In this document: positions 2,566 to 64,000 of the stretch, one piece after another | Numbering within the stretch: position 1 is the stretch's first letter | Layout of the letters: each line of letters starts with the position of its first letter | Origin: a virus | Virus record (IMG/VR): IMGVR_UViG_3300010401_000001 | Location: 1-64,000 of that record | DNA: 64,000 nt | Reading direction: 5' to 3' (one strand) | Notes under the pieces: model-generated | The model's input: the letters and a program-made list of their open reading frames with translations, nothing else | Database searches by the model: none | Told to the model about the DNA's origin: nothing | Made by a program: the position numbers and the translations under genes

Positions 2566-2665
2566 GGCGGAAGGCGAGGGACTCGAACCCAACCGGTGGT
2601 ATCAGCACCGGAACCTCATGGGGATGTAAAAACCTCACGCGTGACCTACACGCGGATCGCCTTCC
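2566..2665 (-). tRNA. tRNA-Sec-like / allo-tRNA-like RNA (9-bp acceptor, 3-bp T stem), apparent anticodon UUA, imperfect anticodon arm
   Basis: GGAAGGCGA/TCGCCTTCC acceptor; CGCGTG/CACGCG D stem; CCGGTG/CACCGG variable arm; GGG-TTCGAGT-CCC T arm; G discriminator; ends GCC without the terminal A. Confidence 0.7.
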
Positions 2666-30737: not shown

Positions 30738-31602
30738 GACGAAGGCGACCACGGTCCGCAAGTATGGCTACGGGCTCCAGCACATCCTACCCGTGCTCGG
30801 CGACCTGTACCTGGACGCGATCGCGCCGGCGGACATCGAGCGCTACGTCGCGTTCCGCATGCGCCAGGTCGGCCTCAAGGGCGGCAACACCGTGCTCAAC
30901 GAGCTGCGGCTGCTGCGCACGCTCGCGCATGATGCGCACCGCAACGGCTACTGCGACCGGGTCTGGACCGACGGCGTGCGCCAGCCCAGAGTCCGCGAGT
31001 ACGACGAGACCAGGCCGAACCTGCTGACCGGCGAGCAGTGCGACCGGCTCCTCGCCGCGATCCCGACGCAGTGGCGCGCGCTGGTTCTGTTCCTGGTCAC
31101 CACCGGCCTGCGGTTCGGCGAGGCGTCGGCGCTGCACTGGGAGGACGTCTCGGGCGGGCAGGCGACGATCCGGTACACCAACGACCGTGGCAGGCTGACG
31201 ACCGTCAAGACGCACAAGAGCCTGCGCCGCGTGCCGATGCTGCCCGTGGTGATGGAGCTGCTCACCGTCAAGTCGAGCGGGCTGGTGTTCCCGTCGCGGA
31301 AAGGGACGCTGCACAAAGGGTCGCCGCTGAAGAAGGTGCTCGACGCGGCGTGCGCGGCGGTGTTCGGGCCGGGCGGGCTGCGCGTTACGGCGCACGGGAT
31401 GCGCAGGACGTTCAATAACGAGGGCCGCTTGGTTGCGAGCACGCTGGTGCTGCAGTCGATCACCGGCCACGCCACGGACGCGATGACCGCGCACTACTCG
31501 ATGGTCGGCGCCGAGGAGAAGGCGGCGGTGAGTCGGGCGGTCGCGGAGCGGGTCGGGGCGGTGGAAGGCGCGGCGAGGAAGGGGCCAGAGCAGGTGAACT
31601 GA
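30496..31602 (+). CDS. int: Tyrosine integrase
   Basis: TGLRFGE, K, HGMRR, TGH, HY catalytic residues. Confidence 0.95.
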   Translation: MDDEGIKQLGKNLWAVRVKRISAATGKTVNRKATVSGSKADARRKRDELRAELASTQAARPRTQLRSYATSWLGRRADDPETKATTVRKYGYGLQHILPVLGDLYLDAIAPADIERYVAFRMRQVGLKGGNTVLNELRLLRTLAHDAHRNGYCDRVWTDGVRQPRVREYDETRPNLLTGEQCDRLLAAIPTQWRALVLFLVTTGLRFGEASALHWEDVSGGQATIRYTNDRGRLTTVKTHKSLRRVPMLPVVMELLTVKSSGLVFPSRKGTLHKGSPLKKVLDAACAAVFGPGGLRVTAHGMRRTFNNEGRLVASTLVLQSITGHATDAMTAHYSMVGAEEKAAVSRAVAERVGAVEGAARKGPEQVN

Positions 31603-47536: not shown

Positions 47537-48490
47537 ATGAGGAATCAGTATTTTGCGTTGTTGATGTGCTGTGCCGTGACGTCTGCGTGCGAGCTATCGG
47601 ACCGCCCGGACGATCGGTCGTCGCAGGCGCAAGCGGTCCTGGCCGCGCCGACCACGATCGCGCCCACGAGCGGGTATGGTGACCCCGGTTCCGTCACGAC
47701 GGTCGACGCCGCGGGCAACGTGAACTGGGTCGGCGGCAACTGGCACGTCCCGCTTCCGGTGTCCGTCGGCGACGTGATCGGTTCGGTCTCGGCGATCGTC
47801 CGTGACAACGGCGCAGCGAACGGCCACACCGCGGACGGCAACGTCATCGTGATGCAGCTGATCTCGCACACGTCGTTAGGCGACAACGCCCGGGCTACGA
47901 TCATCAGTTCGGGCAGCGGGTCGCAGCAGACGTTGACGCTCGCTCCGAGCGGAGGATACCGCGTGCAGAGCGGTGAGGATATGCTCGTGATGTTAGTTGG
48001 CTTCCGGGCCCTCGTGCCGTCAATGGCCGGCCTCGTCACCGTGTCACCGCTCGCACCGAGTGGCACAGCGACAATCGGGACGTTAATCCTGTCATCGGGT
48101 GGCGTAGCCCTGAAGCCGGCGGGCGTTACATTCGTCGGGGATGCAGCAGGTTCGGTGTCCTGGACTGGAGGCGCGTGGAGCGTCCAGATCCCGTGCAACT
48201 TCGGTGACACGATCGATCAGCTTACGACCATCGTAATAGATGGTATCAGTAGCCCGATCACTGCGAGCGTTGTGGTGGTAGGTCAGAGCGGAGGTCCAGT
48301 AGCCCCTGGAGGCGTTCCTCCGTTGAGAACGATCGCGACCCTCACGACGGCTGGGGACGGTAAGTCCCATCCAGTCGTATTCACGCCGGGTTATGTCGTG
48401 CAACCCGGTGAAGGCATAATAGAAACATTCACCCCTACCGCGCCATCTATACAGTCTTCTGTAGGCCAAATACTGATGACCAAGAACTAG
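47537..48490 (+). CDS. Lipoprotein moron with two repeated beta-rich domains
   Basis: Signal peptide ending VTSA-C; AGNVNWVGGNWHVPLPVSVGDVI vs AGSVSWTGGAWSVQIPCNFGDTI. Confidence 0.75.
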   Translation: MRNQYFALLMCCAVTSACELSDRPDDRSSQAQAVLAAPTTIAPTSGYGDPGSVTTVDAAGNVNWVGGNWHVPLPVSVGDVIGSVSAIVRDNGAANGHTADGNVIVMQLISHTSLGDNARATIISSGSGSQQTLTLAPSGGYRVQSGEDMLVMLVGFRALVPSMAGLVTVSPLAPSGTATIGTLILSSGGVALKPAGVTFVGDAAGSVSWTGGAWSVQIPCNFGDTIDQLTTIVIDGISSPITASVVVVGQSGGPVAPGGVPPLRTIATLTTAGDGKSHPVVFTPGYVVQPGEGIIETFTPTAPSIQSSVGQILMTKN

Positions 48491-49537: not shown

Positions 49538-50248
49538 TCAAAGCTCCTGATCTGCGGCGTTGAACCACACCGCGGTGTCCCAGACGCCCGCCGTGTCCCA
49601 GTACAACGTTCTCGCCGGGTCTTGCCCGGTCCACTCGACGATGCGGCGCACACCGTCGCTGGTCGCGCGCAGCACGAGCTCGACGAGCACGGCCGCGACC
49701 GCATCGGACAGCGCGATGCCGTCGACACGCAGCACGGATGCCGCGACGCCGGTGATCACCGTGGTGATGGTGCCGGCGTCTCCGATGACGAGCCGGGCGA
49801 CCTTCTGCACGTCGTTGACCGATCCGTTGCTCTTGTTCGCCGAGATCTGCGCGCGCACGTATCGGCGGTAGATCTCGTCATCGCTCACGCCATCGCGCGC
49901 GCGGCCCACGATGACCCCGATCACGTCGAGCTGCACCCCGACCGCCGTGTCCACGTTGCGCTGCGTCAGCACGGCGAGCATCGCCGCCGCGAGGTCGTTG
50001 GCCGGCGCGAGTAGCGCCGTGATCGCCTTCTCGGTGTTCGTCAGGTGCGCGGGGTCGGTGCTCCGGTACATGCTCGGCAGCCGCGACAGGGCCCGCGCCA
50101 CGTAGTCGCGCGGGGGTAGCGTGCTCGTGATGGCCACGGCCGCGGTCGGCAACACCACCACCGGGGCGCTGTCGGCCGGCGCCGCCCAGCGCAGGGCCGC
50201 GGCCGAGCCGGCGATCGCGGGCGCGCTCGGCTGTTGCTCCTCGATCAC
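49538..50248 (-). CDS. Baseplate wedge protein (DUF2612 / tail protein I-like)
   Basis: AVGVQLDVIGVIVGR.R....D..YRR. Confidence 0.8.
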   Translation of the reverse strand: MIEEQQPSAPAIAGSAAALRWAAPADSAPVVVLPTAAVAITSTLPPRDYVARALSRLPSMYRSTDPAHLTNTEKAITALLAPANDLAAAMLAVLTQRNVDTAVGVQLDVIGVIVGRARDGVSDDEIYRRYVRAQISANKSNGSVNDVQKVARLVIGDAGTITTVITGVAASVLRVDGIALSDAVAAVLVELVLRATSDGVRRIVEWTGQDPARTLYWDTAGVWDTAVWFNAADQEL

Positions 50249-51618
50249 GGGACCCCGGTGCTCGTCGCCACGGCCACGCGGCTTGTGTCGTACACGGCAC
50301 GCTCGAACAACGAGATGGGGATCGTCGTCGACAACGACGGCGATGCCGTGGTGCCGATCAGCGGCAGCGCGACGTCGAGCACGCCGGAAACCGTGAAGAC
50401 CTGCGCCGATACCCGCGCCGCCACCACGTTGGTGCCGTCATCGAGCGCGTTGCCGCTCGTGGCGATCGCCGCGGCGATCTGCGCTGCGCCGTCGACCGGA
50501 AACGCGCTCGGATCCACTACGACGGTTACCGAGACCCAGACCGGGATCTCCGTCACCCGCGAGAATGCCATGGTCTGCGGCGTTCCCTCGCTGTCAAGCG
50601 CCGTGCCGATCACCGTCCCGAACGTCCTGATCCCGTCCGCGACGTTGTCGAGCAGCGCGTCCCAGATGTCCTGGTCCGCGCCGCCTTTCACCATCGCCAG
50701 CACGGAGTGCGGCGGGATCCCGTTCGCGTCGGTGCCGTCGGTGACGTTGCTGAACACGGTGCAGCTCGTGACCGGCGTCGGGCCGTCGGTCAGCCCGAGC
50801 AGCGCCGCGCGGATCGCTCCCTTCGTGGACGTGCCGGGCTGCTCGAGCTCGATCTCGCGTAGGGCGCGCAGCTGGGCATTGGTCATCACCGGCGAGCCGA
50901 CCGCGGCGTCCAGGATGTTGATGACCCCCGACCACCCGCCGACCGGTGTGTCGATGCTGACGATGTCGCCGCTCACCGCGACGATCGGTCCGGACACCGT
51001 AGCGCGCGTCAGCACGTCGACGAAGCCGGTCCCGGCTCCGAGGAAGCGCCACGTCGCGCCGCCGTCGGTGATGTCCACGCCGCGCGTCGTACCGCTCGGC
51101 CCCCCGCTCGGCGCCGACGGCCCGCCGACGGTGCAGAGGTAGATGTTGCCGGCGTTGGTGCGCTTATCACCGGCCACGTAGACCGTCGAGCCGAGCCAGG
51201 CCGTGGCCGCGGCGATGACCTGGTCGCCGGCGTCCTGGGTCGTGAACTGCTGCCCGGTGCTCGAGGTCGACGCCAGGGAGCCGGCCGTGATTGGCGTGGT
51301 CGGCGTGCCGGTGAGCGTCAGCGTGACGCTGCTGAACGTCGCCGCGCGGCGCTTCGTGCCGGTCAGCGCGCAGATCGCATCGAGCGCGGCGTCGAGCGCC
51401 TTGTTCGGGTCCTGGCTCGAGACGATCGCCTCGAGGAGCTCGTTCAACAGCGCGAACAGCTCCGCCACGATGCCGATCTGCTGGCCGTCCGGGGAGCGGT
51501 CCGAGACGTCCATCGAAGCCCCGAAGAAGCCCCGCCACTTCGCGTTGATCTGGTCGCGGACGTCTGCGAGCGTGGCGATCTGCAGTCCCTGGGTAGTCAG
51601 CGCCGGTATGGGCACCAC
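50245..51618 (-). CDS. Baseplate J/gp47-family protein with CBM-like insertion
   Basis: SPDGQ, ALDAICALTG..R, I.TPV.GW, IPPHSV...V.GG. Confidence 0.9.
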   Translation of the reverse strand: MVPIPALTTQGLQIATLADVRDQINAKWRGFFGASMDVSDRSPDGQQIGIVAELFALLNELLEAIVSSQDPNKALDAALDAICALTGTKRRAATFSSVTLTLTGTPTTPITAGSLASTSSTGQQFTTQDAGDQVIAAATAWLGSTVYVAGDKRTNAGNIYLCTVGGPSAPSGGPSGTTRGVDITDGGATWRFLGAGTGFVDVLTRATVSGPIVAVSGDIVSIDTPVGGWSGVINILDAAVGSPVMTNAQLRALREIELEQPGTSTKGAIRAALLGLTDGPTPVTSCTVFSNVTDGTDANGIPPHSVLAMVKGGADQDIWDALLDNVADGIRTFGTVIGTALDSEGTPQTMAFSRVTEIPVWVSVTVVVDPSAFPVDGAAQIAAAIATSGNALDDGTNVVAARVSAQVFTVSGVLDVALPLIGTTASPSLSTTIPISLFERAVYDTSRVAVATSTGVP

Positions 51619-53101: not shown

Positions 53102-53508
53102 GTTCCGGGCACGATCTGCACCTGGCCGTCGCCGAACCTGGTGATGATCGTCGCGCTCACGGTCAGGTTGCGTGTCGTGCCGTCAAAGCTTGACTTGAAC
53201 TCCGCGACGTCGAGCACGCCGGGCACCGCGAGCGCCTCGCCGCGCAGGACCCGGGCGATCTTCGCGGCGTCGTAGGGCTGCCCGAGGATGGCGTCCTGCT
53301 CGGTAACCACGCCGTCCTCGGTCTCGAGCCACGGCGTGCCCAGGTCGCGATTGAGGAACCACTCGTCGCGCCACAGGAGCCACGCCGTGCGCACCAAGAT
53401 GAGCACGGCCTCGAGGCCGCTGGCCTTGCGCAGCGGCACGATGAGGTCGTTGTTCTGGTCGCGCGCGAACACGACCGGATCGGTTGATAGCGCGGTGGTC
53501 GCGGGCAT
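53098..53508 (-). CDS. gp25-like baseplate wedge / sheath initiator
   Basis: EWFL....G.PW...ILG...VPGV..V. Confidence 0.8.
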   Translation of the reverse strand: MPATTALSTDPVVFARDQNNDLIVPLRKASGLEAVLILVRTAWLLWRDEWFLNRDLGTPWLETEDGVVTEQDAILGQPYDAAKIARVLRGEALAVPGVLDVAEFKSSFDGTTRNLTVSATIITRFGDGQVQIVPGT

Positions 53509-54164
53509 CAGAGAACCTTGACCTTCTGCGAGGTGTAGCTGGCGACCGCGGCGTTGAAGCTGTTGAGCGCCGCGGTGATCGCGCTGCCCGCCGCCGTCCC
53601 TCCGGTCGGGATGCCGCTGACCGCTGACGCGATGGCGGTTACAAGTGTGGTCAGCTGCGATAGGAAAGCGTTGCCGAGCAACACGGGTTCCGTGGCCGGC
53701 GAGCCGCCTAGGTTGAGCACGTCTTGGTCGTCGACCTCGGCGAACGTGCCAGCGGGGTCGTCGCCATCGAAGAACAGCCCGGTGATCGCGATCCCGTCAG
53801 CCTCGTGGTGGTGCCGGTCATCGTCCGGGTCAACCACGTCGTCAACCGACTTCAGCTTCGCGATGCTCGACGACGAGAACACGACGAGGCAGCGGTCGCC
53901 GACGCGCACCGGGTACTTGAACCGCTCGATGCCGCTGCCGATCCGCATTACCGGGACGTCGGTCAGCGGCGCGATCACCGTGGTCTGGCGCTCGCCGTCG
54001 CCGTCGACGTGCGCATCCATGACCAGGAGCTACACCGTAGCGCGCCGGGTCGCCTTGTCGTAGGACTCGATCCGGCCGGGCAGAGCGGCGCGGAGCCCAT
54101 CGAGCCGGTCATCGAGCGCGGCGTCGATTACCTCGTTGAGTAGCGGCGTCAGCGAGTCGCTCAT
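53508..54164 (-). CDS. Gp138-family baseplate spike with in-frame TAG at codon 45 (54030-54032)
   Basis: ATG 54164 overlaps the upstream stop; ALPGRIESYD...ATV*LL...DVPV...PV..GD.CLVVF...RHHH..DG. Confidence 0.85.
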
Positions 54165-55428: not shown

Positions 55429-56409
55429 TTATTGCCCTGGAAACGTCGGCGGGAAGTTGCGCTGGAAGCGCTGTAGGTCCTCGTTGCTGATCGAGTTGTC
55501 GATTGTGTCAGGTAGCGACTGCTGGAAGCGTTTTAGGTTGAGCCCGGCCGGCAAGTTGTTCACCTCCGACGTCGGGATCGGCGCGCCGACTCGTGCCTGG
55601 CGCGCCTGCTCGCGCAGGTCGTCGGTCATCTCTGTGCGGCGTTGTCCGGTAAACTTTTCGCCGGTTGTCAGGTCGGTGTACTCTGTCCATGGCATGGCCG
55701 GGTCCTTCTTGCCAAGAACGATGGCCTCGTCCTTGGACAACCCTGGTGGCCGGTTGTATCTGACCTCAACCTGAGTAACTACTCCAACAAATCTCCCCTT
55801 GGCGATGTCGTGTTTCCATTCGACGACGGCATCGGCGACGGCGGCCTTACCGATCGCCGCCTTCGCCTTCGCTTGTCCGCCGGCTCCGGCCATCGAGGTC
55901 CGGACGCGGACCTTGGTGCGCGTGTTCGTGATGACCACGACCTTGCGGAACTTCGCGGTAAAAAACAGCGCGCCTGGTCGCTGCTTCTTGGGATCTGGGT
56001 CGCTGCGGCCGGGGGACTTGTCCTTGTTCACCGGTACGGTCAGGTCGATGAAGGCCATCGAAGTGAACGTCCCCAGGGTCGTCTCGATGCGCACGGGCCG
56101 CCGGGCCGCCTTGAGCTCGCGGAGCCGCTGTAGAGCTTCGGCGGAGGGAAGCGCCGTGCTGGTCGTGCCGTCCGGTCCCGTCTCGGGCTGCCGCGTCGGA
56201 TCGGTGGCAACGTCGCCGATCGGCGTGTCCGAGACGATGCACTCGAGCGTGACCTCGTCGGGAAGCTCGCGGATGTGGTCGGTGAAGTCGACGCCTTTCT
56301 CGACGGGGAACTTCGTGGCTTCTCCGGGAAAGCTGAACTCCTCGGACAAGGCGAGGTCCATCAGGTAGCTCGGCAGTGGCGGAGGCCCGCCGATGCGTAC
56401 GAGGCTCAT
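55429..56409 (-). CDS. Dit-like tail/baseplate protein
   Basis: T.FPVE.G....DH....P. Confidence 0.8.
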   Translation of the reverse strand: MSLVRIGGPPPLPSYLMDLALSEEFSFPGEATKFPVEKGVDFTDHIRELPDEVTLECIVSDTPIGDVATDPTRQPETGPDGTTSTALPSAEALQRLRELKAARRPVRIETTLGTFTSMAFIDLTVPVNKDKSPGRSDPDPKKQRPGALFFTAKFRKVVVITNTRTKVRVRTSMAGAGGQAKAKAAIGKAAVADAVVEWKHDIAKGRFVGVVTQVEVRYNRPPGLSKDEAIVLGKKDPAMPWTEYTDLTTGEKFTGQRRTEMTDDLREQARQARVGAPIPTSEVNNLPAGLNLKRFQQSLPDTIDNSISNEDLQRFQRNFPPTFPGQ

Positions 56410-58094
56410 CCGTACACGTCCATGGTCTGGCGCAACACGCCGCCGAGCTCCTCGTGGAAGACCTTGCGTACCTGGTCGCCGACCGCCACCGGGTCGGCGT
56501 TCGGGCTGTGCACGTTGATGTCGCCGACGTTGATGTTCATGGCGGTCGGTCCGCGTTGTCCGCCGCCGATGCTGCCTTGCGGAAGCCGCGGAGCATCGAG
56601 GTCGTCGGGCAGGTTGTACTTCTTGTTGAACTCCTCGGGAGGTAGCTCAGTCGAGTCCTGGAGCATCTCGGCGTGCTCGCCGGATGGCAGCACGGCGGCG
56701 CCGGTTATTACCTTGCCCGCCACACCAGGTAGGTCGGCGACTGCCTTCACCAGAGCGATCAGGCCATGAATCACTGGCAGGTTGGCTACGAAATCAAACG
56801 CCGCCGAGAACCCGCTTTTGATCGCCTCCCATGCCGTTCGCGCAGCTCCGGCGATCGCATCGAAGGCATCGTGAAACGCCTTCTTCACCTTCTCGGGGTG
56901 CTGCATCACCCAGCGAATGGCATAGACGAGCGCGGTCAGCGCCAGCACGATGAGCGTGATCGGATTTGTCGCGAAGGCGATCGCCGACTGGATCGCGAAC
57001 ACGCCGAGCACGATGCCGAGCGCGATGAGCAGCGACTTCACGAGCTCGCCGCCGTCCACGAACTGGCTCATCCAGTCGAGTAGCTCGCCGCCTTGCTCGA
57101 CGACGAAGTCGATCGCTATGGCAAGGCCATCGAACGCATCGCCAAGCCATTCACCGATGGCCTTGCCGACACGCTCGATCGTCTCCTGGTTTTTGTCGAG
57201 CCACTCGTTGAAGCGCCCGACGGCCTCGGTGATGCGCTCGAACAGCGGCACGCCGACCTTGCCGAGCGCGATCTGCAGCTTGTCCTTGAGCGTCGAGGTG
57301 ACTCCCGAGAAGCTCTGCCCGAACGCCTGGGCGGCGTCCTTGAACGCCTCGCTGCCGAGGGCTTTCTTCACGACGGCCAGGCGCCCCTTGGCGTCGAGTT
57401 CGCGGAACTGATCCTCGGTCATGTGCACCATGCCGAGGAGCTGCTTCACGAACATCATCCGGTTCGAGACGTTGCCCTGCAGCATCTCGGAGATCTCGAG
57501 GGCTGCGTAGCCGGCGCCGCGACCGCCCGCGAGCACCTTGGCGGCGATCACGCCTTGCTCGGTGATCTGCTTCAGGTCCTCGAGCTTGCCGCCGGTGTTG
57601 AACGTGGCCGCCGCGAGGCCCTTGCCGAACTCGAGGATCTCCGCGGTAGTGACCGGCGTCTGCGTCGAGAACTTCTGCCACTCAGCGTAGAGCTCCTTGG
57701 CCTGACCTGTCGCATGTTCGAAGCTTCCGCCGAGCTGGCCCTCGATCATCGCCGCAAGCGAGATCGTCGAGTCTTGGACCTCCTGGTTGAACTTGACGAG
57801 GTGCTCGTAGCCGAAGTCGGCAGCGAGGTAGGTCAGGTACCCCTTGATGGCGGCGCCTGCGGCGTCGAAGGAATGCGCGGCCTGGTCGCCGGCGCGCGCC
57901 GCGGCGTTGCCAGCTCCCGCCGCGGCTGGTGCGACCCCGCCGAGCAGCTTGCTCAGGGTCCCGGCCCCCGCGCTGAGCTGGCCGAGCGCGGCCTGCGCCT
58001 GGCCCATCTGTCCCGTGCCCTGCGCCCACTGCGCCGTGTTGACCCGGAGCCCAAGCGTCGCGAACAGCGCTGCGATTTCTCCGCCGTCAGCCAC
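56406..58094 (-). CDS. Tape measure protein (about 560 aa)
   Basis: Position after the chaperones; Ala/Gly-rich helical with TM segments. Confidence 0.85.
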   Translation of the reverse strand: MADGGEIAALFATLGLRVNTAQWAQGTGQMGQAQAALGQLSAGAGTLSKLLGGVAPAAAGAGNAAARAGDQAAHSFDAAGAAIKGYLTYLAADFGYEHLVKFNQEVQDSTISLAAMIEGQLGGSFEHATGQAKELYAEWQKFSTQTPVTTAEILEFGKGLAAATFNTGGKLEDLKQITEQGVIAAKVLAGGRGAGYAALEISEMLQGNVSNRMMFVKQLLGMVHMTEDQFRELDAKGRLAVVKKALGSEAFKDAAQAFGQSFSGVTSTLKDKLQIALGKVGVPLFERITEAVGRFNEWLDKNQETIERVGKAIGEWLGDAFDGLAIAIDFVVEQGGELLDWMSQFVDGGELVKSLLIALGIVLGVFAIQSAIAFATNPITLIVLALTALVYAIRWVMQHPEKVKKAFHDAFDAIAGAARTAWEAIKSGFSAAFDFVANLPVIHGLIALVKAVADLPGVAGKVITGAAVLPSGEHAEMLQDSTELPPEEFNKKYNLPDDLDAPRLPQGSIGGGQRGPTAMNINVGDINVHSPNADPVAVGDQVRKVFHEELGGVLRQTMDVYG

Positions 58095-58745
58095 CGCTGC
58101 GCTCCTTGCGCCGCTTCTCGGCGCGCTCACGGGTCTCGTCGCGCGCGTCGAGCAGGAGGTTCAAGAGGTCGACCTCGTTGAGCGACATGGCCTTGACGTT
58201 GGTCCATGCCTGCGCCGGGTCATCCGACTCCAGCACGAGGCGGTACCCTAGCCAGTAGCGCTCGTGCTCTGGCTGGAGTCCTCGGAGGGCGAGATCTTCG
58301 CCATCAGCGCCTTGGGGTCGAACCCGATCAGGCCGAGTCCGTCCAAAAAACCCGAGAACGACACCTCCAGCGCGAGCGTGACGGCGGGGAAGATGTACTT
58401 CTGCCGACCCGTGAACGCGTTGTTCAGCGCGTCCTTGCCCTTCAGGTCGTACGTCCCGGCGCCATCGCCACGCGCGATGAGCGTCGTCCTCTTGAGGAGC
58501 CGCTCGAGGTACGACGTGAGCTTGCCGCTCATCAGCTCGCGCGCGAACATCGCCAGCGCGTCGCCGACCATGACGCGGCCGCGCTGAGCCGCCCCGCCCG
58601 CCGGTGCGACGATTGCCGTCATGTCGGCGAGCAGGTCGGTTGCGTCGCAGAACAGCAGCTCGGTGGAGATGATTTCCACGGAGCCGTCGTCGGAGCGCCA
58701 GGTTTTCTGGCCGGCGGTCGTTCCCATGTTCTTCGCCGCGCTCAC
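58087..58745 (-). CDS. Tail assembly chaperones: G (58248-58745) and -1 frameshift product GT (to 58087)
   Basis: Slippery G GGT TTT TTG at 58345-58353; the -1 frame is open to 58087. Confidence 0.85.
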
Positions 58746-59146
58746 TGGTCACCTCCGGCCTGCATCACCATCTGGTCGGTGATGAAGGTCCATTCCATAC
58801 CGATGATCTTGTTGCCGCGCTTGACGGGCGCGTGCTTCTGGATCGCCGTGTTCACGCCAATGACGAGCGTGCCGTCGTTGAGATCCTCGAGCTGAAACGG
58901 CGCGATGACGCGTGCGTTGTGCGCGATGGATAGCTCGCGGTTTGTCGGCGACTCCTGCGATAGCGTGATCTTGAACGTCCCGCTCTCGTTGGCGTTGAAC
59001 ACGAACGTCGCGAAGCCCTGACTTCCGACGTGCAGATCCACTGCGTTCTCTTGGCGCTCGGCGCCCGCGAACTCGCCATCCATCACGCCCTGCATGCGGA
59101 TCGGCCCCCAGCTCGAGGCCGTCTGCTTTGGATCGAAGGTTGGCAT
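58742..59146 (-). CDS. Tail tube protein (DUF3277-like)
   Basis: TFDPK...SGT..ITL.Q.SP.N..L...EW.F. Confidence 0.85.
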   Translation of the reverse strand: MPTFDPKQTASSWGPIRMQGVMDGEFAGAERQENAVDLHVGSQGFATFVFNANESGTFKITLSQESPTNRELSIAHNARVIAPFQLEDLNDGTLVIGVNTAIQKHAPVKRGNKIIGMEWTFITDQMVMQAGGDQ

Positions 59147-59158
59147 CTGCGGGCGCTC

Positions 59159-60802
59159 CTAGAAGGTGAGGTTGACGTCGACGGGAATGACTGTGTGGAT
59201 CGCACCCGCAAAGGACCCGCTCACCACGAGGCCGGGCAGGTTTCGGTTGTCGAGGTCGGCCTGCGGAATGTCGTCGAAGGCCGGCACTGTCACCGTTGCC
59301 CCGGCGCGCAGCACGCCCTGCGTGATGGACTGCGCCACGAATCCGCGCGCGGCCTGCGCTAGCTGCGAGGCCCCCTCCGGCGTCTGGGGCACGATGTCAT
59401 TGCCGACCAGCACGCCGAGGAGTGCCTTCTGCAGCCCGTCCGACAGGAAGTCGGCGTTGCGGCGGATGTCGATGAACTTGTAGACCGCCGAGAAGACGAA
59501 CGACTCCCAGAAGAACGGCCGGTCCGTCGCGACCTGCTCGTAGCTGTTCATGCGCCGGCCGCCGGGCGTACCAGGGATGCCGCGTAGCCTGACCTTATGC
59601 GAATCGGTCAGCGTGACGGGCGTGACGAGCTCGAGCGTCTTGAACTTCGCGGTCGCCTTGCCAGGGTCGGTCGGTAGCCAGCGCCCCATGATGCCGGCGG
59701 CTAGGAAGTTCGCCGGCGATGGGTGGTAGCATCCCATGCTCGCCGCGTACCCGGCCGACAGGCTCTGCGCGCCGACATCGGTGCCGCCGCTCACATCGGT
59801 CGTTACGCATGCCGAATCGCACGTGTCCCACGCGTAGGTGCGCCCGTTCACCTCCACCCACGCCTCAGCATCCTGAACATACGCCGAGCTATTGTAGTTC
59901 GTGAGCAGCGTGTACCAGCCCTGGTCGGCCTTGAGGATCGCGTCGAGGTCGGCGGTTAGCAGCACGTTGCTCGGCGATGCGTGGGTCTGCGCGATGCTCA
60001 TGACGTCTGGGTCGTCGATGGAGAGCGATGCCCACGACGTTCCGGCCGTCGCCACCGCGCGGAGCTTGTCGGTCTGCCCGGCCCCAGCGATCTGCGACAC
60101 CGTGAAGTTCGAGCCCAGCACCGTGGCGAGTCCGGCCACGAGCTGCGCGATGATGACGTCGTTGACGCCGCGCTGGAGCGTGTGGGTTCCCGAGCCGGCC
60201 GCGGTGATGTCGATCGCGGTGTTCGCGAGCGCGTTGGCCTTCGAGGTCGCTAGCTTATAGCTGTTGACGTCGACGGCGATGATGAAGACGTTGGTGTCGA
60301 CGGCGATCCCGGTGCCGGTCGGCAACGTGCCAGTGGTTGACAGCCTGAACGGCCCATCCCCCGTGGCCATGCCGTGGCCGGGCTCGGAGATGGTATCGGT
60401 CGCCGTGTTGACGTCGCCCACCGCGAACGGCAGATCGGCAAGCGCGAGGTAGCTCGCAACGCCATCGGCGAAGCCGCGGCCCTTGGCCGTGATCTCGTAG
60501 AGCTGACCGACCTGTACGGCCGAGATCCCGATGTCGTACTGCTGCAGCACCGTGCCCGCGGCGCGCCCAATCGCGATCAGTCGCGGGTGCGGCTGTTGCG
60601 CGAAGATCACCGCCGCGGCGCGCGCCTCCGGGCCATCGACCGGGAAGTCGGCGATGACCGCGGCGAGGGAGCTGTAGTAGCGGATCCGCTGCACGAACGA
60701 CGCGGTGTGGCTCAGGATGAGCGGGATGCCGAAGCCCTGCCGCGCGAGCCCGGAGCTCTGGATCGTCAGGTTGATGACTACGTGGTCGGTCGCGGCGCCC
60801 AT
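59159..60802 (-). CDS. Tail sheath protein (DUF3383-like) with inserted domain
   Basis: GFG.PLIL, IFAQ.P.P....IGR, KFKTL, FIDIRR.AD, AGAIH. Confidence 0.9.
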   Translation of the reverse strand: MGAATDHVVINLTIQSSGLARQGFGIPLILSHTASFVQRIRYYSSLAAVIADFPVDGPEARAAAVIFAQQPHPRLIAIGRAAGTVLQQYDIGISAVQVGQLYEITAKGRGFADGVASYLALADLPFAVGDVNTATDTISEPGHGMATGDGPFRLSTTGTLPTGTGIAVDTNVFIIAVDVNSYKLATSKANALANTAIDITAAGSGTHTLQRGVNDVIIAQLVAGLATVLGSNFTVSQIAGAGQTDKLRAVATAGTSWASLSIDDPDVMSIAQTHASPSNVLLTADLDAILKADQGWYTLLTNYNSSAYVQDAEAWVEVNGRTYAWDTCDSACVTTDVSGGTDVGAQSLSAGYAASMGCYHPSPANFLAAGIMGRWLPTDPGKATAKFKTLELVTPVTLTDSHKVRLRGIPGTPGGRRMNSYEQVATDRPFFWESFVFSAVYKFIDIRRNADFLSDGLQKALLGVLVGNDIVPQTPEGASQLAQAARGFVAQSITQGVLRAGATVTVPAFDDIPQADLDNRNLPGLVVSGSFAGAIHTVIPVDVNLTF

Positions 60803-60879
60803 GAGGACAGGGTCGCCGTGGGGCGCGGGGCGGTCGAAAAGCGCTCATCGTGTCGAGGCGGTGCGGTATGGTGGAGCGA

Positions 60880-61104
60880 ATGGATCCCAAGCTCCGTGCA
60901 CTTCACTACCGAGCGCTCGCGATCGGCGAACGCGTCGACCACTTCGTCAAGATTCTGCTCGATGACCGAATGCCGAACCGCGTACCCGGCAAGCCGGTAC
61001 CACAAGAAATCGTGGTCGCCGTCACCGGCCAGGCGCTGCTCATGGCGCTACTAGAGCGAGAAGATGATCAGCTTAGGCTTGCCATGGAGGCGCATAACCG
61101 ATAA
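60880..61104 (+). CDS. Opposite-strand moron gene
   Basis: ORF with good codon bias. Confidence 0.6.
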   Translation: MDPKLRALHYRALAIGERVDHFVKILLDDRMPNRVPGKPVPQEIVVAVTGQALLMALLEREDDQLRLAMEAHNR

Positions 61105-61175
61105 AAGCCAGCCCGATAAAAAAGCCCGGCACGGCGTCAGCGGTCCGGGGTATCGTGGCTGGAATGCAACCACGT

Positions 61176-61463
61176 ATGCTCGCAAAGCTCCTGGTGACGT
61201 CCGGAAATCCTGCGCCGAAGCCCGGCGATCTCGTAGTAGTCGAAGTCCCGGCCAACTGCACTATTCACAGCACGGATGCCGCGCGGCTCACTCGCCTGCG
61301 TGTCATGGCTCGCGAGCTTCGCGACGCCATCAAGACCGGGCAGAGCGAGGCGGTCATCCTCCGTCTCGCCTATGGCGTGTCCGAGTTCGCCGACGTCACC
61401 GACGCCGATGCCGGCAGTATCGTCGACGTGCGCATCAGCTCGACTATGGAGGCGTCCCGATGA
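61176..61463 (+). CDS. Opposite-strand moron gene
   Basis: Coupled to the next gene; ends SIVDVRISSTMEASR. Confidence 0.6.
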   Translation: MLAKLLVTSGNPAPKPGDLVVVEVPANCTIHSTDAARLTRLRVMARELRDAIKTGQSEAVILRLAYGVSEFADVTDADAGSIVDVRISSTMEASR

Positions 61464-62065
61464 CGCGCTGCAACTACATCCCGCCCGATGGCCTGTCCGT
61501 CATCGCGATCGCCAAGGAGCGCGGCAGCACGACCGACGGAGACATCCAGGCGCTGGTCGACAGGTTCGGGTGCAAGGCGGAAGCGGCGTACCAGATGACC
61601 GCCGAGGAGGATTCCGACCGCGAGCAGTTCTCGTGCATCGACCACGTCGGTCATCTATGCGGCGACGAGTACTGGCTCGTGGAGCCGGTGTACAGGCCGC
61701 CCGGCGATGTTGCGATCTCGATCGTCAACACGCAGGGCATCGCGCGCGCGGGGTTCGGATCGCCGATGATCCTCGCGCCGGTCCCGACCACTACGCCCAT
61801 CGTTGATCTCGGCACCAACCCGACCCGCGAACAGATACACGCCGCCGGGTTCAACGACGACAGCGATGAGTACCGCAGGGCTCGCGCCGCGAACACGCAC
61901 CGGCCGCCAAACAGTACAGGATTCGATCCCAATCTCGTCGCCGACGCAACCTCCGCTGGTGGCTACATCGCGTCATGCCAGTTCTGCGGCAGCCGACAGG
62001 CCATCGACGCCCTGGACATCACCATGTGCTGCCCGAGCTGCCGGGCGAAGCATGGGTTACCGTAG
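61460..62065 (+). CDS. Chimeric protein containing a sheath N-terminus-like segment and Zn motifs
   Basis: VAISIVNTQGIARAGFGSPMILA vs sheath VINLTIQSSGLARQGFGIPLILS. Confidence 0.65.
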   Translation: MTRCNYIPPDGLSVIAIAKERGSTTDGDIQALVDRFGCKAEAAYQMTAEEDSDREQFSCIDHVGHLCGDEYWLVEPVYRPPGDVAISIVNTQGIARAGFGSPMILAPVPTTTPIVDLGTNPTREQIHAAGFNDDSDEYRRARAANTHRPPNSTGFDPNLVADATSAGGYIASCQFCGSRQAIDALDITMCCPSCRAKHGLP

Positions 62066-62119
62066 ATCGACGCTCTGCTCGATGCTGTCCGGTACGAGCG
62101 TCACCTCCTGGAAGCCATC

Positions 62120-62671
62120 ATGCGCGCGCTGACCAGCGACGACCCAACCCGGGCAGCACCATACGCCGTCGGTGACGAAGTCCGGTGGCGCACCGGTCCG
62201 TGCGACTTCGTGTGGCACCTCGGCCGCGTGACCTCCATTGTCGATGACCGACCCAACGATGGCATCGACAAGCCGTTCTGGATCGTGCGCGTTGACACCG
62301 CGGGCGAGCGGCGCTTCTCCGGTCCGGTCATCCAGACGTGCCTGCGAAGGGAATACCCGGCCGACGACAGCCTACGGTCGTCAGCCGCCGCCACGGCATC
62401 CGGGCTCTGCAAAGCCGTGATCGCCGTACCCGGCGTCAACGCCGTCACCGTGGTTGAGTACGACCGCGGCGAGGTCGAAGTCTTCGCTGACGGCGGAGAT
62501 CCGGACGCGATCGCGCGCTGCATCTACGACAACACGTGGCCCGGGGTCGTGCTCCGCGGCCAGGAAACCGGCGACATCGGCAACGGTACGCGAGTCGCGT
62601 TCTCGCGCGGAGCAGCGAGCCGACACCCGGGCACCGGCGGCATTGTCCGCATCACGTTCGTAGAGCGCTGA
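62120..62671 (+). CDS. Chimeric protein containing a baseplate-J C-terminus-like segment; in frame with the previous ORF across one TAG
   Basis: VFADGGDPDAIARCIYDN...GV...G...VAFSR vs J MVKGGADQDIWDALLDN...GI...G...MAFSR. Confidence 0.65.
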   Translation: MRALTSDDPTRAAPYAVGDEVRWRTGPCDFVWHLGRVTSIVDDRPNDGIDKPFWIVRVDTAGERRFSGPVIQTCLRREYPADDSLRSSAAATASGLCKAVIAVPGVNAVTVVEYDRGEVEVFADGGDPDAIARCIYDNTWPGVVLRGQETGDIGNGTRVAFSRGAASRHPGTGGIVRITFVER

Positions 62672-62677
62672 TTCGGC

Positions 62678-64000
62678 CTACGGCTTGACGACCGTCTGCT
62701 CGCCGCCACCCGGAGTCGTCGCATCCACGCTCACGAACTCTCCGCCCGGCTCGCTCACGTCGATCTTGATGTGCAATTGTACCTCGACCATCGCCAGCGG
62801 ATCGAGCATTCCCGAGCGCGTGCCCGGCATGACGCGCACCTTGCCGAACGTCCCGACGCCGACATCGCCCTTGCGCAGCACCTTCCCGACGCTCGGCAGC
62901 TCCAACGCTGCCGTGACCCTGGCAAGCACGAGCTCGGCGCGGCGCGCGCCAGTCGCCTCGCCGGCGAAGCACCGCAGTTCGAGCGTGGGGTGACGGGTCC
63001 CGCGGGCGTGGCTCACGACGCCGCCGTTCTCGCGCCGCGAGATCAGCCAGTCGTCGCTGACCGAATCGACGTCCACGATCCGCATCGAGATGTACAGCCC
63101 TGCCGGCGCCGGGCCGGCGACAGAGCCGCCAACATTCGCCCAGATCACCTGGCTGGGCGCGAGCCCGGATCCGATGACCACCCACTGGTAGATCGCATCC
63201 TCCCACGCCGTGGTCGGGTCCACCGGTACAACCGGCAGGTCATCATCCGGCGCCAACGCGATGACCGGACACGCCGCGCCAGGGACAGCCGGCGCCCACG
63301 GCTGATCATCGTCCACCGGCAGCGGCGGAGGCGGTGGGGCGGCGTTCCAGCTCGGCAGCGCCTCGTCGTCCGGATCGAGCTCATTGGGCCCGCGCGGCGC
63401 CCAGCTGATCGCAAAAGACCAGCTCTGTTCCTCTGCCCCCGGCATCAGCGGAAGCCCGTCTTCGACTGGGACGGCGTACAGGACCGCGCCGATCGGCGCT
63501 CCGCTCGCCACGGCAACCTGCGTACCTTCATCGAGCACGGTCACGGCAGGCGGCGTGAACTCGTCGGCTGGGGTCGCATAGACTACCGCGCCGACTCGGA
63601 CCACCCCCATCGCGACAGCCGGCATGTCTTCATCGAGCGCGACCACAGCCGTCGTCGCCAGTTCATCGACCTGGCCGCCAGCCGCAGGCGCCGCACCAAA
63701 CAGCGGCATGGCGCCCGCGCCGGTGGCAACGTCATCAACGATGCTTGCCGTAAGCGGTAGCTCATCTACCGCGCCGGTCACTGCGAGCGCGGCGAGCTGC
63801 CCAGCCGCCAGTGACCAGCCGGCCGCCGGATCGTCGGATGTGACCACTACCGGCAGCTCGTCCGCCTGCGCCGCCGGCGACGGAGCCGATGTCGACCAGG
63901 ACATCAACGCGCCAACGTTGATCGCGCGTACCACGTCGTCGTCCACGCCGATCGACGGCGTCGACAGGTCCTCGAAAGCGATCGTGACGAGCTGAGCGCC
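62678..64000 (-). CDS. Neck/tail-terminator protein fused to long acidic repeats; starts beyond right edge
   Basis: C-terminal WEDAIYQWV..GSGL...VIWAN...YISMRI; recurring DELP/DDLP units; frame open to 64000. Confidence 0.7.
   Translation of the reverse strand, partial: GAQLVTIAFEDLSTPSIGVDDDVVRAINVGALMSWSTSAPSPAAQADELPVVVTSDDPAAGWSLAAGQLAALAVTGAVDELPLTASIVDDVATGAGAMPLFGAAPAAGGQVDELATTAVVALDEDMPAVAMGVVRVGAVVYATPADEFTPPAVTVLDEGTQVAVASGAPIGAVLYAVPVEDGLPLMPGAEEQSWSFAISWAPRGPNELDPDDEALPSWNAAPPPPPLPVDDDQPWAPAVPGAACPVIALAPDDDLPVVPVDPTTAWEDAIYQWVVIGSGLAPSQVIWANVGGSVAGPAPAGLYISMRIVDVDSVSDDWLISRRENGGVVSHARGTRHPTLELRCFAGEATGARRAELVLARVTAALELPSVGKVLRKGDVGVGTFGKVRVMPGTRSGMLDPLAMVEVQLHIKIDVSEPGGEFVSVDATTPGGGEQTVVKP

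What the first reader, a model, noticed from the sequence alone, without database searches (positions are those of the whole stretch)
60880..62671. Opposite-strand cassette inside the tail operon carrying fragments of the phage's own structural proteins
Seen: four plus-strand ORFs between the terminator and sheath genes. One contains a sheath N-terminus mimic (about 61706-61777, GIARAGFGSPMILA, then GFNDDSDEYRRARA vs sheath DFPVDGPEARAA). The next contains a baseplate-J C-terminus mimic (about 62413-62610). Another ends in SIVDVRIS, which resembles typical sheath starts (weak). The fragments are diverged at protein level, so they are not recent copies. Inference: lysogen-expressed dominant-negative pieces that poison tail assembly of related phages, or decoys for host sensors of structural proteins.
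Basis: partly seen in the sequence, partly recalled or inferred. Interest (0 to 1): 0.75.

Follow-up and report, generated by a model that had tools for sequence, protein, structure and literature searches.

The report
Accessory gene built from tail-protein fragments
A temperate soil phage carries, backwards inside its tail operon, a fast-changing accessory gene partly built from old copies of pieces of its own tail sheath and baseplate proteins; selection has kept the gene, and it may act on tail assembly, but its function is untested.

Summary
ORF C (61460-62065) contains a homologue of tail-sheath residues 7-82 (hhalign 97% probability, E 5e-11). ORF D (62120-62671) contains a homologue of baseplate-J residues ~262-353 (hhalign 97%, E 5e-11; its best four PDB sequence hits are all baseplate wedge proteins). 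The "SIVDVRIS" resemblance in ORF B is not supported.

C and D are one ancestral gene. They lie in the same frame and only a TAG (62063) separates them. That codon is CAG in the nearest relative, and a second close relative also has one unbroken ORF.

The gene belongs to a rare modular family of about 25 members, all from metagenomes. The constant part is a 75-aa CCCH zinc domain (AlphaFold pLDDT 92). The variable part is made of shuffled modules: sheath-like, J-like, a Tudor-like barrel, zinc ribbons and others. Three phages whose structural genes are ~90-95% identical each carry a different module set.

The gene is under purifying selection (dN/dS 0.25, p 4e-7), so it is not debris. The fragments are anciently diverged and are no closer to the resident phage's own J protein than to others.

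No expression or functional data exist. The best guess, at about 35%, is interference with tail assembly as in Tab and Tai. The scan had already noted this stretch and the amber codon in another reading of the same genome.

The parts
60850..61104 (+). ORF A (84 aa from GTG 60850, or 74 aa from ATG 60880). This is a variable slot.
   Evidence: Composition GC1 0.75-0.77, GC2 0.33-0.37, GC3 0.67-0.68. No Pfam, PHROG, NCBIfam or PADLOC match. Deleted in L002 and in the X2 contig. L012 has an unrelated ORF at this position.
61108..61162 (.). Stable hairpin in the A-B intergenic region. Its right half is a conserved block just upstream of the ORF B slot.
   Evidence: Plus strand -31.9 kcal/mol, z -3.8. 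On the minus strand it is a hairpin followed by U6. The pairing is not kept in L002 or L012, but 28-39 nt (CAGCGGTCCGGGGTATCGTGG) are conserved. A promoter or ribosome-binding block is more likely than a conserved terminator (inference).
61155..61463 (+). ORF B (102 aa), joined to C by an ATGA overlap.
   Evidence: The N-terminal half is conserved in L012 (LLxTxGNPAPxPGDLVxxEVPxNCTIHSxDAxRLxRLR) and the C-terminal half is not. In L002 it is replaced by a 76-aa Cys/His ORF that resembles the short form of the family's zinc domain. No family match.
61460..61690 (+). ORF C aa 1-77: the constant CCCH zinc domain of the family.
   Evidence: C38, C59 and H62 are invariant and C4 is conserved in at least 90% of 24 sequences. 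AlphaFold2 pLDDT 92.5, pTM 0.77. Only weak fold matches, to B-box, ZZ and RING zinc modules (Z <= 4.0). Foldseek against PDB found nothing. The domain also exists as stand-alone 70-140 aa proteins.
61706..61930 (+). ORF C aa 83-157: module derived from the sheath N-terminus.
   Evidence: phrog_205 E 3.4e-4. hhalign against sheath N-termini 97.1%, E 5.2e-11. In-genome HMM search finds only the sheath, E 8e-4. Over aa 83-125 there are 5 synonymous and 0 non-synonymous differences from L012.
61976..62041 (+). ORF C aa 173-194: CxxC...CCxxC zinc ribbon.
   Evidence: Read directly from the sequence. dN/dS 0.11 against L012. In P0005 the same ribbon sits at the N-terminus.
62063..62065 (+). In-frame TAG that splits the ancestral gene into C and D.
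   Evidence: This codon is CAG in L002 and in the X2 contig. L012 has an unbroken ORF. The Logan contig of the source run X1 matches this stretch with no differences, TAG included; that run may be the source of this DNA, so it is not independent.
62066..62119 (+). In-frame linker between C and D.
   Evidence: Translated as part of the single ORF in L002. The window's ATG at 62120 is CTG there.
62150..62368 (+). ORF D aa 11-83: Tudor/SH3-like beta-barrel.
   Evidence: This is the only moderately confident part of the C-Q-D model. VIA-align Z 5-6.7 to Tudor, chromo, CarD and KOW barrels. 61% identical to P0008 aa 245-315. dN/dS 0.18 against L012.
62378..62611 (+). ORF D aa 87-164: module derived from baseplate J (wedge protein).
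   Evidence: It keeps the J family's conserved GG.D..I, G....G and FSR positions. Absent from L002 and the X2 contig. The junction with the barrel is bridged by near-identical contigs in two further soil or rhizosphere runs, X3 and X5.
60557..60784 (-). Tail sheath gene (59159-60802), the part encoding aa 7-82: the parent-type region of the C module.
   Evidence: DUF3383 at 1.5e-17 and phrog_205 at 4.6e-60. This N-terminal region is the best conserved part of the sheath among distant phages.
50560..50835 (-). Baseplate J gene (50245-51618), the part encoding aa ~262-353: the parent-type region of the D module.
   Evidence: Baseplate_J and phrog_6 at 1.7e-43. This is the best conserved stretch among distant J proteins. 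PDB relatives are wedge or 'triplex' proteins.
2569..2665 (-). tRNA-Sec-like RNA with an apparent UUA anticodon, a candidate stop-codon suppressor that could join C and D.
Evidence: Rfam tRNA-Sec 36.5 bits, below the gathering score of 47. ARAGORN does not call it.

Best explanation
Anatomy, shown here. ORFs C and D are one accessory gene of a rare, fast-evolving modular family. The constant head is a small CCCH zinc domain. The body is assembled from shuffled modules. Two of these are old, diverged captures of the conserved N-terminal region of the tail sheath (aa 7-82) and of the conserved middle region of baseplate wedge protein J (aa ~262-353). In this genome an amber codon splits the gene, and a new ATG could restart translation for the second half. 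The gene follows a small coupled ORF (B) and runs against the late tail operon, starting from the region divergent from the sheath gene.

Function, inferred. The protein uses its sheath-derived and J-derived modules to bind the natural partners of those regions in tail-assembly intermediates. In this way it interferes with tail assembly of related superinfecting phages while the phage is a prophage, as the unrelated proteins Tab and Tai do. Convergent late transcription and/or a partner protein would keep it from harming its own phage after induction.
For: Both fragments are homologous to the structural proteins:
- Sheath.
- Baseplate J.

C and D are one gene. They share a frame, the TAG is CAG in L002, and L012 has a single 459-aa ORF.

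The gene is under purifying selection. Window against L012: C has dN/dS 0.25 (33 non-synonymous and 36 synonymous changes, p 4e-7) and the barrel 0.18 (p 5e-4). The J-like modules keep the J family's conserved residues.

The gene changes quickly and by modules, as conflict genes do. Three phages with ~90-95% identical structural genes carry three architectures: N-Sh-Zn-TAG-Tudor-J, N-Sh-Zn-Tudor and N-Sh-Zn-mod6-Tudor-X. More distant members permute the same modules.

The two captured regions are the best conserved parts of sheath and J across distant phages. A broad-range binder would be expected to target such regions.

The phage is temperate. The gene lies antisense within the late structural block, the arrangement reported for Tab (PMC10884400, section 8) and Tai (PMC11364771, section 13). 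Antisense 'noncontiguous operon' switching is also reported for Tha (PMC11087260).
Against: - There is no evidence on expression. No RNA run holds the stretch.
- There is no binding or phenotype evidence.
- PADLOC gives no match, though that library predates Tab and Tai.
- The most conserved part of the family is the zinc domain, not the structural fragments. The zinc domain also exists alone, so the activity may lie there and have nothing to do with tails.
- The sheath-derived piece has its own invariant motif (VVDLGTNPTREQ) that sheaths lack, so its binding surface may have changed.
- The modules do not track the resident phage's J protein.
- Other family modules (mod5-7) match no structural gene of this phage.
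- In this genome the gene is interrupted by a stop codon.
- The hairpin that could end late antisense transcripts is not conserved in relatives.
Confidence: 0.35

Rival explanations
1. It is an assembly factor or minor virion or tail component of the phage itself. The sheath-like and J-like modules would let it dock on the sheath and wedge during the phage's own tail assembly, for example as a cap, chaperone or decoration.
For: It lies in the tail module directly next to the sheath gene. It carries homologous pieces of two tail proteins. The barrel fold also occurs in neck and tail proteins (8qkh_S, Z 5.9; a generic fold). It is under purifying selection.
Against: It is on the opposite strand to every structural gene. 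Its module content differs among phages whose sheath and J proteins are ~90-95% identical: the J-like module is present here, absent in L002 and replaced in L012. It is split by an amber codon here. dN/dS is higher than for the sheath (0.25-0.34 against 0.17).
Confidence: 0.17
2. It is a sensor-type defence protein in which the structural fragments act as baits ('integrated decoys'). The captured fragments would co-assemble with an invading phage's sheath or wedge proteins and so switch on an effector, either the zinc domain or a partner such as ORF B. This would resemble CapRel or Tha sensing of structural proteins.
For: The architecture is a constant head with a variable, shuffled, target-like body. 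A small upstream ORF is translationally coupled to the gene in all three close relatives (ATGA overlaps), as in toxin-antitoxin pairs. Prophage systems triggered by tail proteins exist (Tha, PMC11087260).
Against: No toxin or enzyme domain is detectable in any member (Pfam, NCBIfam, PADLOC). The 75-aa zinc domain looks like a binding module. ORF B has no antitoxin family match.
Confidence: 0.13
3. It is a zinc-finger regulatory or other accessory protein whose function has nothing to do with tails. The sheath-derived and J-derived modules would simply be re-used folding units picked up by illegitimate recombination from neighbouring DNA.
For: The zinc domain is the only universally conserved part and also stands alone. 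Several modules have no structural-gene counterpart. The sheath-derived piece has evolved a new invariant motif.
Against: Two different structural proteins contributed modules, and in each case the piece is that protein's most conserved region. The modules keep the parent families' conserved residues after long divergence. Sheath-like and J-like modules also occur together without the zinc domain (P0098).
Confidence: 0.25
4. It is an anti-defence decoy. The phage would make harmless copies of sheath and J epitopes to occupy host immune sensors that recognise structural proteins.
For: The captured pieces are the conserved parts that a pattern-recognition receptor would be expected to read. Many bacterial STAND receptors sense core phage proteins (PMC13581612).
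Against: No sensor of sheath or baseplate J is known; that paper lists the tail sheath and baseplate hub only as possibilities. A faithful epitope would be expected to trigger such a sensor rather than block it. The pieces are only about 25-38% identical to real sheath and J proteins.
Confidence: 0.06
5. It is non-functional recombination debris, or the resemblances are chance.
For: The gene is interrupted by a stop codon in this genome. Pairwise similarity to the phage's own proteins is weak.
Against: Profile-profile probabilities are 97% for both modules. Unbiased searches of the genome and of PDB point to the same two families. dN/dS is 0.25 with p 4e-7. The family is spread over about 25 diverged members.
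Confidence: 0.04

Closest known systems
Tab, the tail assembly blocker of Pseudomonas phage JBD26 (Patel et al. 2024, PMC10884400)
   Same: An accessory gene of a temperate phage that sits on the opposite strand inside the late structural region (Tab has its own promoter). A neighbouring small gene is involved. The proposed effect is on tail assembly of related phages.
   Different: Tab lies between the terminase genes and acts through the tape-measure protein. The sections read here do not describe it as built from pieces of structural proteins. No sequence comparison with Tab could be run here. Function here is untested, and no anti-Tab-like partner has been identified.
Tai/Ati tail assembly inhibition systems (He et al. 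2024, PMC11364771)
   Same: A defence gene carried as a moron in prophages, in divergent orientation so that it interrupts the late operon ('noncontiguous operon'). Its expression drops when late transcription runs through it. It blocks tail assembly.
   Different: Tai targets the central tail fibre or the tail needle of siphoviruses and podoviruses. It is not reported to be homologous to its targets. It is found in Proteobacteria. Here the family carries homologous fragments of sheath and wedge proteins, sits in a myovirus, and nothing has been shown experimentally.
Tha/Ith of Staphylococcus aureus prophages (Rostol et al. 2024, PMC11087260)
   Same: A prophage-encoded system keyed to tail proteins, whose on/off state is tied to antisense transcription in a noncontiguous operon.
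   Different: Tha is a HEPN RNase in the cI operon that is activated by minor tail proteins. No HEPN or other enzyme domain is present here.
Tail sheath proteins (DUF3383 / phrog_205) and baseplate J wedge proteins (Baseplate_J / phrog_6; e.g. PDB 9ndy_H, Pam3 gp22)
   Same: ORF C aa 83-157 is homologous to sheath aa 7-82, and ORF D aa 87-164 to J aa ~262-353. The conserved family residues are retained.
   Different: Only about 75-80 residues of each parent protein (547 aa and 457 aa) are present. They are embedded between unrelated domains, so these proteins cannot be a sheath or a wedge protein.
Plant NLR 'integrated decoy' receptors (from my own knowledge, an analogy only)
   Same: A constant signalling or binding part is fused to variable domains copied from the proteins that matter in the conflict.
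   Different: A different kingdom and different protein families. No effector domain is recognisable here.

Membership tests
Tail sheath protein (DUF3383 / phrog_205) | Full-length protein with both the N-terminal and the C-terminal conserved regions of the sheath core | tested here: not met
   Only profile positions ~15-84 of 455 are matched. There is no C-terminal sheath region in C or D. P0084 has a weak DUF3383 C-terminal hit, E 0.058.
Tail sheath protein (DUF3383 / phrog_205) | Sequence homology to the sheath N-terminal region | tested here: met
   hhalign 97.1%, E 5.2e-11, over sheath aa 7-82. phrog_205 E 1e-5 to 5e-4 in 10 members.
Baseplate J / wedge protein (PF04865, phrog_6) | Full-length J architecture, including the N-terminal Baseplate_J motif | tested here: not met
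   The phage's own J matches Pfam Baseplate_J at aa 77-134. D has no Pfam hit, and only J aa ~262-353 has a counterpart in D.
Baseplate J / wedge protein (PF04865, phrog_6) | Sequence homology to the conserved middle region of J | tested here: met
   hhalign of A4 against A2 gives 97.2%, E 4.8e-11. The top four PDB hits are wedge proteins. Shuffle control 0 of 1,587.
Tab / Tai-type prophage tail-assembly blockers | Encoded by a temperate phage, antisense to and inside the late structural operon | tested here: met
   Integrase present. The plus-strand cassette lies between the minus-strand sheath and neck genes.
Tab / Tai-type prophage tail-assembly blockers | Expressed from the prophage and switched off or neutralised in the lytic cycle | not testable with these tools
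   No RNA run holds the stretch. No sigma-70-type promoter was found.
Tab / Tai-type prophage tail-assembly blockers | Blocks tail assembly of incoming phages | not testable with these tools
   This needs plating assays and electron microscopy.
Tab / Tai-type prophage tail-assembly blockers | Sequence homology to Tab or Tai | not tested
   No Tab or Tai sequence was available from a tool. PADLOC (2023) gave no hit, but it predates both systems.
Tha (HEPN) tail-activated system | HEPN RNase domain | tested here: not met
   No Pfam or NCBIfam domain in A-D or in relatives.
Toxin-antitoxin pair | Recognisable antitoxin and toxin families in the coupled ORFs B and C | tested here: inconclusive
   ATGA coupling is present, but there are no family matches.
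B-box / ZZ / RING-like zinc-binding modules | Conserved Cys/His metal ligands and a cross-brace or treble-clef type fold | tested here: inconclusive
   C4, C38, C59 and H62 are conserved. The model is confident (pLDDT 92.5). The best fold matches reach only Z 4.0-3.0 (B-box, CYLD, ZZ, RING), and Foldseek is not significant.
Programmed amber read-through / suppressor-dependent gene | An in-frame TAG with coding sequence continuing, plus a cognate suppressor tRNA | tested here: inconclusive
   The TAG is in frame, and it is CAG in the relative. A second TAG-for-CAG lies in the baseplate spike gene. The tRNA-Sec-like RNA with a UUA anticodon is below the Rfam threshold. TAG also ends 11 of 57 normal genes, including the sheath.

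The most novel reading that the evidence does not exclude
This clade of temperate soil myoviruses maintains a hypervariable 'collage' gene. A zinc-domain head is fused to exchangeable modules copied long ago from the conserved interaction regions of tail sheath and baseplate wedge proteins. These homotypic pieces would act either as dominant-negative poisons of tail assembly or as baits that sense a competing phage. That would be a defence principle based on captured fragments of the target itself, comparable to integrated decoys in plant immunity.
Probability: 0.3. Interest if true: 0.85.

Novelty: new variant of a known kind. Interest (0 to 1): 0.62.

Why it matters
Known phage-encoded blockers of virion assembly (Tab, Tai) have no reported relation to their targets. 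How they recognise conserved structural proteins is largely unknown.

A family that visibly recycles the conserved interaction regions of sheath and wedge proteins would give a readable, testable rule for target recognition: like binds like. It would also be an example of structural genes being turned into conflict genes by domain capture and shuffling.

The module swaps among phages that are otherwise ~90-95% identical make it a natural experiment in specificity.

Even if the tail link proves wrong, three results stand and none has a described relative:
- a new, confidently folded CCCH zinc domain family;
- an unusually clear case of module permutation;
- a gene split by an amber codon in a phage that also carries a candidate suppressor tRNA.

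Tried and rejected
- Pfam, PHROGs, NCBIfam and PADLOC gave no function for A, B, the zinc domain or the barrel.
- ESM Atlas gave only chance-level neighbours.
- AlphaFold2 of the 403-aa read-through protein was useless except for aa 230-300 (pLDDT 39).
- Foldseek of the zinc domain against PDB found nothing with E <= 0.001.
- The whole-family profile A1 against PDB sequences found no sheath chain.
- Family modules 5, 6 and 7 were tested as possible further structural fragments. None matched an ORF of this phage significantly; the best was the Dit-like protein at E 0.34. The idea that every module is a structural fragment is dropped.
- I tested whether the J-like module tracks its own phage's J protein. 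It does not: ranks 39 and 13 of 64.
- A conserved minus-strand terminator between A and B is rejected, because the pairing is lost in L002 and L012.
- No related DNA or protein was found in GenBank phages. Scans of viral contigs and genome contigs with N-domain patterns also found nothing.
- A scan for the NPTRE motif gave one true relative (L012) and five unrelated loci.
- No RNA holder was listed for the stretch.
- The genome search could not reach the L002 record, so I could not check whether it carries the tRNA.
I stopped that step. The sheath-segment comparison was done instead in the script box from stored files.
Full report
CONTEXT

The window is bases 1-64000 of a complete 89,855-bp IMG/VR virus record with direct terminal repeats. 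GC content is about 65%. The record encodes a tyrosine integrase at 31024-31503, so the phage is temperate.

The tail module runs on the minus strand:
- Dit-like protein, 55432-56409
- tape measure, 56409-58130
- chaperone, 58251-58745
- tube, 58745-59146
- sheath, 59159-60802 (DUF3383 1.5e-17; phrog_205 4.6e-60)
- after the cassette, a giant neck gene starting at 62678 whose C-terminus resembles a neck terminator

Baseplate J is at 50245-51618.

THE ORFS

Four plus-strand ORFs fill 60850-62671. C and D have the codon-position GC pattern of real genes in this genome (GC3 0.85 and 0.82, against 0.90 for the sheath). A and B are weaker (0.67 and 0.74). B and C overlap by ATGA.

C and D are in the same frame. 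Only TAG 62063-62065 and an 18-codon linker separate them, and reading TAG as Gln gives a 403-aa protein.

CLOSE RELATIVES SHOW ONE VARIABLE GENE

L002 is a metagenome contig about 90% identical in DNA. In L002:
- A and B are replaced by a 76-aa Cys/His ORF.
- The TAG is CAG and the window's ATG at 62120 is CTG.
- The result is a single 307-aa ORF that ends just after the barrel domain and lacks 62378-62676.

An independent soil run (X2) holds the same form. Two other runs (X3, X5) hold near-identical contigs that bridge the window-type junction between the barrel and the J-like module.

L012 is an IMG/VR contig of 58.6 kb. A J protein 95% identical over the searched region (aa 225-400) comes from a contig of the same length (P0012). 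L012 has one unbroken 459-aa ORF with the order zinc domain - sheath-like - zinc ribbon - 'module 6' - barrel - another C-terminal module. It also has an ORF B homologue coupled to that ORF by the same overlap, and an unrelated ORF A.

So three nearly identical phages carry three different architectures of one gene.

IS THE SHEATH RESEMBLANCE REAL? YES, AS HOMOLOGY

- phrog_205 matches ORF C aa 83-144 (profile positions 20-78) at E 3.4e-4. It matches 8 of 9 first-found relatives, P0086 and the L012 version (1.1e-5).
- An HMM of the family segment, searched against all 1,092 six-frame ORFs of the phage, finds only the sheath (E 8e-4), at its N-terminus.
- Against an alignment of nine sheath N-termini from distant phages, hhalign gives 97.1% probability, E 5.2e-11, 75 columns, sheath aa 7-82.
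- A search of PDB sequences with the whole-family profile did not retrieve sheaths, so the signal is moderate, not overwhelming.

IS THE BASEPLATE-J RESEMBLANCE REAL? YES, MOST CLEARLY THROUGH RELATIVES

- ORF D against its own J protein is not significant by BLASTP.
- D aa 86-165 is 40% identical (E 4e-11) to a module of relative P0008.
- That P0008 module scores 22.9 bits over about 100 positions of an HMM built from 64 lineage J proteins. D itself scores 9.6 bits, which none of 1,587 shuffles reached.
- Five family members carry the module (A4). Its profile has baseplate wedge proteins as its four best PDB hits: 9ndy_H at 6e-4, Phi92 gp145 at 1e-3, 9zd7 at 4e-3 and Pam3 gp22 at 0.08.
- hhalign against the J alignment gives 97.2%, E 4.8e-11, J aa 262-353.
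- The modules keep the J family's conserved GG.D..I, G....G and FSR residues.
- They are 30-38% identical to J proteins and no closer to the resident phage's J than to others (ranks 39 and 13 of 64). They are therefore old captures, not recent copies and not co-evolving mimics.

The ORF B 'SIVDVRIS' resemblance has no support.

THE FAMILY

A profile search of 1.84 billion representatives found 40 proteins, about 25 of them true family members. All come from metagenomes and none has a name.

The constant element is a ~75-aa domain with C38, C59 and H62 invariant and C4 conserved in at least 90%. It folds confidently (pLDDT 92.5). It resembles B-box, ZZ and RING zinc modules only weakly (Z <= 4). 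It also occurs as stand-alone 70-140 aa proteins.

Behind it, modules are shuffled:
- sheath-like;
- J-like (window D, P0008, P0085, P0087, P0098);
- a Tudor/SH3-like barrel (Z 5-6.7, a generic fold);
- zinc ribbons, C-terminal here and N-terminal in P0005;
- three further modules with no significant counterpart among this phage's genes.

The order of the barrel and the J-like module is reversed between the window and P0008. BPJ proteins from contigs of the same lengths as those of three family members (114,797, 87,199 and 15,346 bp) are 74-77% identical to this phage's J over the searched region, so the family probably travels with one phage clade.

SELECTION

Window against L012:
- C has dN/dS 0.25 (33 non-synonymous and 36 synonymous changes where neutrality predicts about 3:1; p 4e-7).
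- The zinc ribbon has 0.11 and the barrel 0.18 (p 5e-4).
- The sheath-like segment alone has 0.49 (p 0.07), but its 43-aa core shows 5 synonymous and no non-synonymous changes.

Against L002 the values are 0.34-0.36 on fewer changes, and the sheath gene gives 0.17. The gene is therefore functional but evolves faster than the structural genes. 'Debris' is rejected.

THE AMBER CODON

The TAG between C and D replaces CAG. The baseplate spike gene (53508-54164) also has a TAG where L002 has CAG.

The phage encodes a tRNA-Sec-like RNA with an apparent UUA anticodon at 2569-2665. It scores 36.5 bits, below Rfam's gathering score of 47, and ARAGORN does not call it.

TAG is also the normal stop of 11 of 57 confidently coding ORFs, including the sheath. 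Genome-wide recoding is therefore excluded, and partial suppression is possible but unproven. Either way C, and perhaps D from its own ATG, can be made.

REGULATION

No sigma-70-type promoter or standard terminator was found.

The A-B spacer folds into a stable hairpin, which on the minus strand is followed by U6. The pairing is not kept in relatives. What is kept is a 28-39-nt block directly upstream of the ORF B slot, which is more likely a promoter or ribosome-binding block.

The stops of D and of the neck gene are 6 bp apart, with no terminator between them. Late transcripts probably run antisense into the unit; this is inference.

WHAT IT MOST LIKELY DOES

Shown: an accessory, selected, fast-shuffling gene carrying homologues of the best conserved regions of sheath and wedge protein J, antisense within the late operon of a temperate phage.

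Inferred: it binds partners of those regions and interferes with tail assembly of related phages. This would be analogous to:
- Tab, on the opposite strand between the terminase genes, with its own promoter and an anti-Tab partner (PMC10884400);
- Tai, in divergent orientation interrupting the late operon, with lower expression when late transcription is on (PMC11364771).

Antisense switching of a tail-triggered prophage defence is also documented for Tha (PMC11087260).

I give this reading about 35%. The rivals are:
- a function centred on the zinc domain and unrelated to tails (25%);
- an assembly factor for the phage's own tail (17%);
- a bait-type sensor coupled to ORF B (13%);
- an anti-defence decoy (6%);
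- debris or chance (4%).

LIMITS

No expression data exist. Most of the protein could not be modelled.

Noticed in passing
window 47537-48490 (+): A 317-aa ORF on the opposite strand inside the baseplate/tail-fibre block. Its N-terminus has a lipoprotein-type signal (MRNQYFALLMCCAVTSAC). It is a second antisense moron and could be a surface or superinfection-exclusion lipoprotein.
   Followed up: no
window 53508-54164 (-): The baseplate spike gene has an in-frame TAG at codon 45 where the ~90% identical relative L002 has CAG. This is the same kind of change as between ORFs C and D.
   Followed up: partly
window 2569-2665 (-): A tRNA-Sec-like RNA with an apparent UUA anticodon. Rfam scores it 36.5 bits, below the gathering score of 47, and ARAGORN does not call it. 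It is a candidate suppressor for the two TAG-interrupted genes.
   Followed up: partly
window 62678-64000 (-), continuing to 66121 in the full record: The neck/terminator gene is a giant ORF of about 1,147 aa (1,107 aa in L002 and 1,145 aa in L012). Only its last ~150 aa resemble a neck terminator. It carries a W..Y..G....G..Y.C motif like CBM5/12. The same motif is present in baseplate J and occurs as an insert in family member P0007.
   Followed up: no
L002 7774-8004 (+): In the nearest relative, the ORF A/B slot holds a 76-aa Cys/His ORF (..C..EHLGKML..). It looks like a short paralogue of the family's zinc domain (compare P0109) and is also coupled by ATGA to the main gene.
   Followed up: partly
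window 61460-62065 compared with its flanks: Between the window and L002, ORF C is far more similar at synonymous sites (dS 0.055) than the sheath gene (0.34) or the linker-barrel part (0.22). This suggests a recent exchange of just this segment between the two phages.
   Followed up: no
proteins P0094, P0097, P0104 (distant relatives of the ORF D barrel): Large proteins made of many repeats of the barrel match Pfam Gp18_dom_I (T4 sheath domain I) at 1e-14 to 3e-21, along with many SH3 and Tudor families. This is probably a generic SH3-like signal.
   Followed up: no
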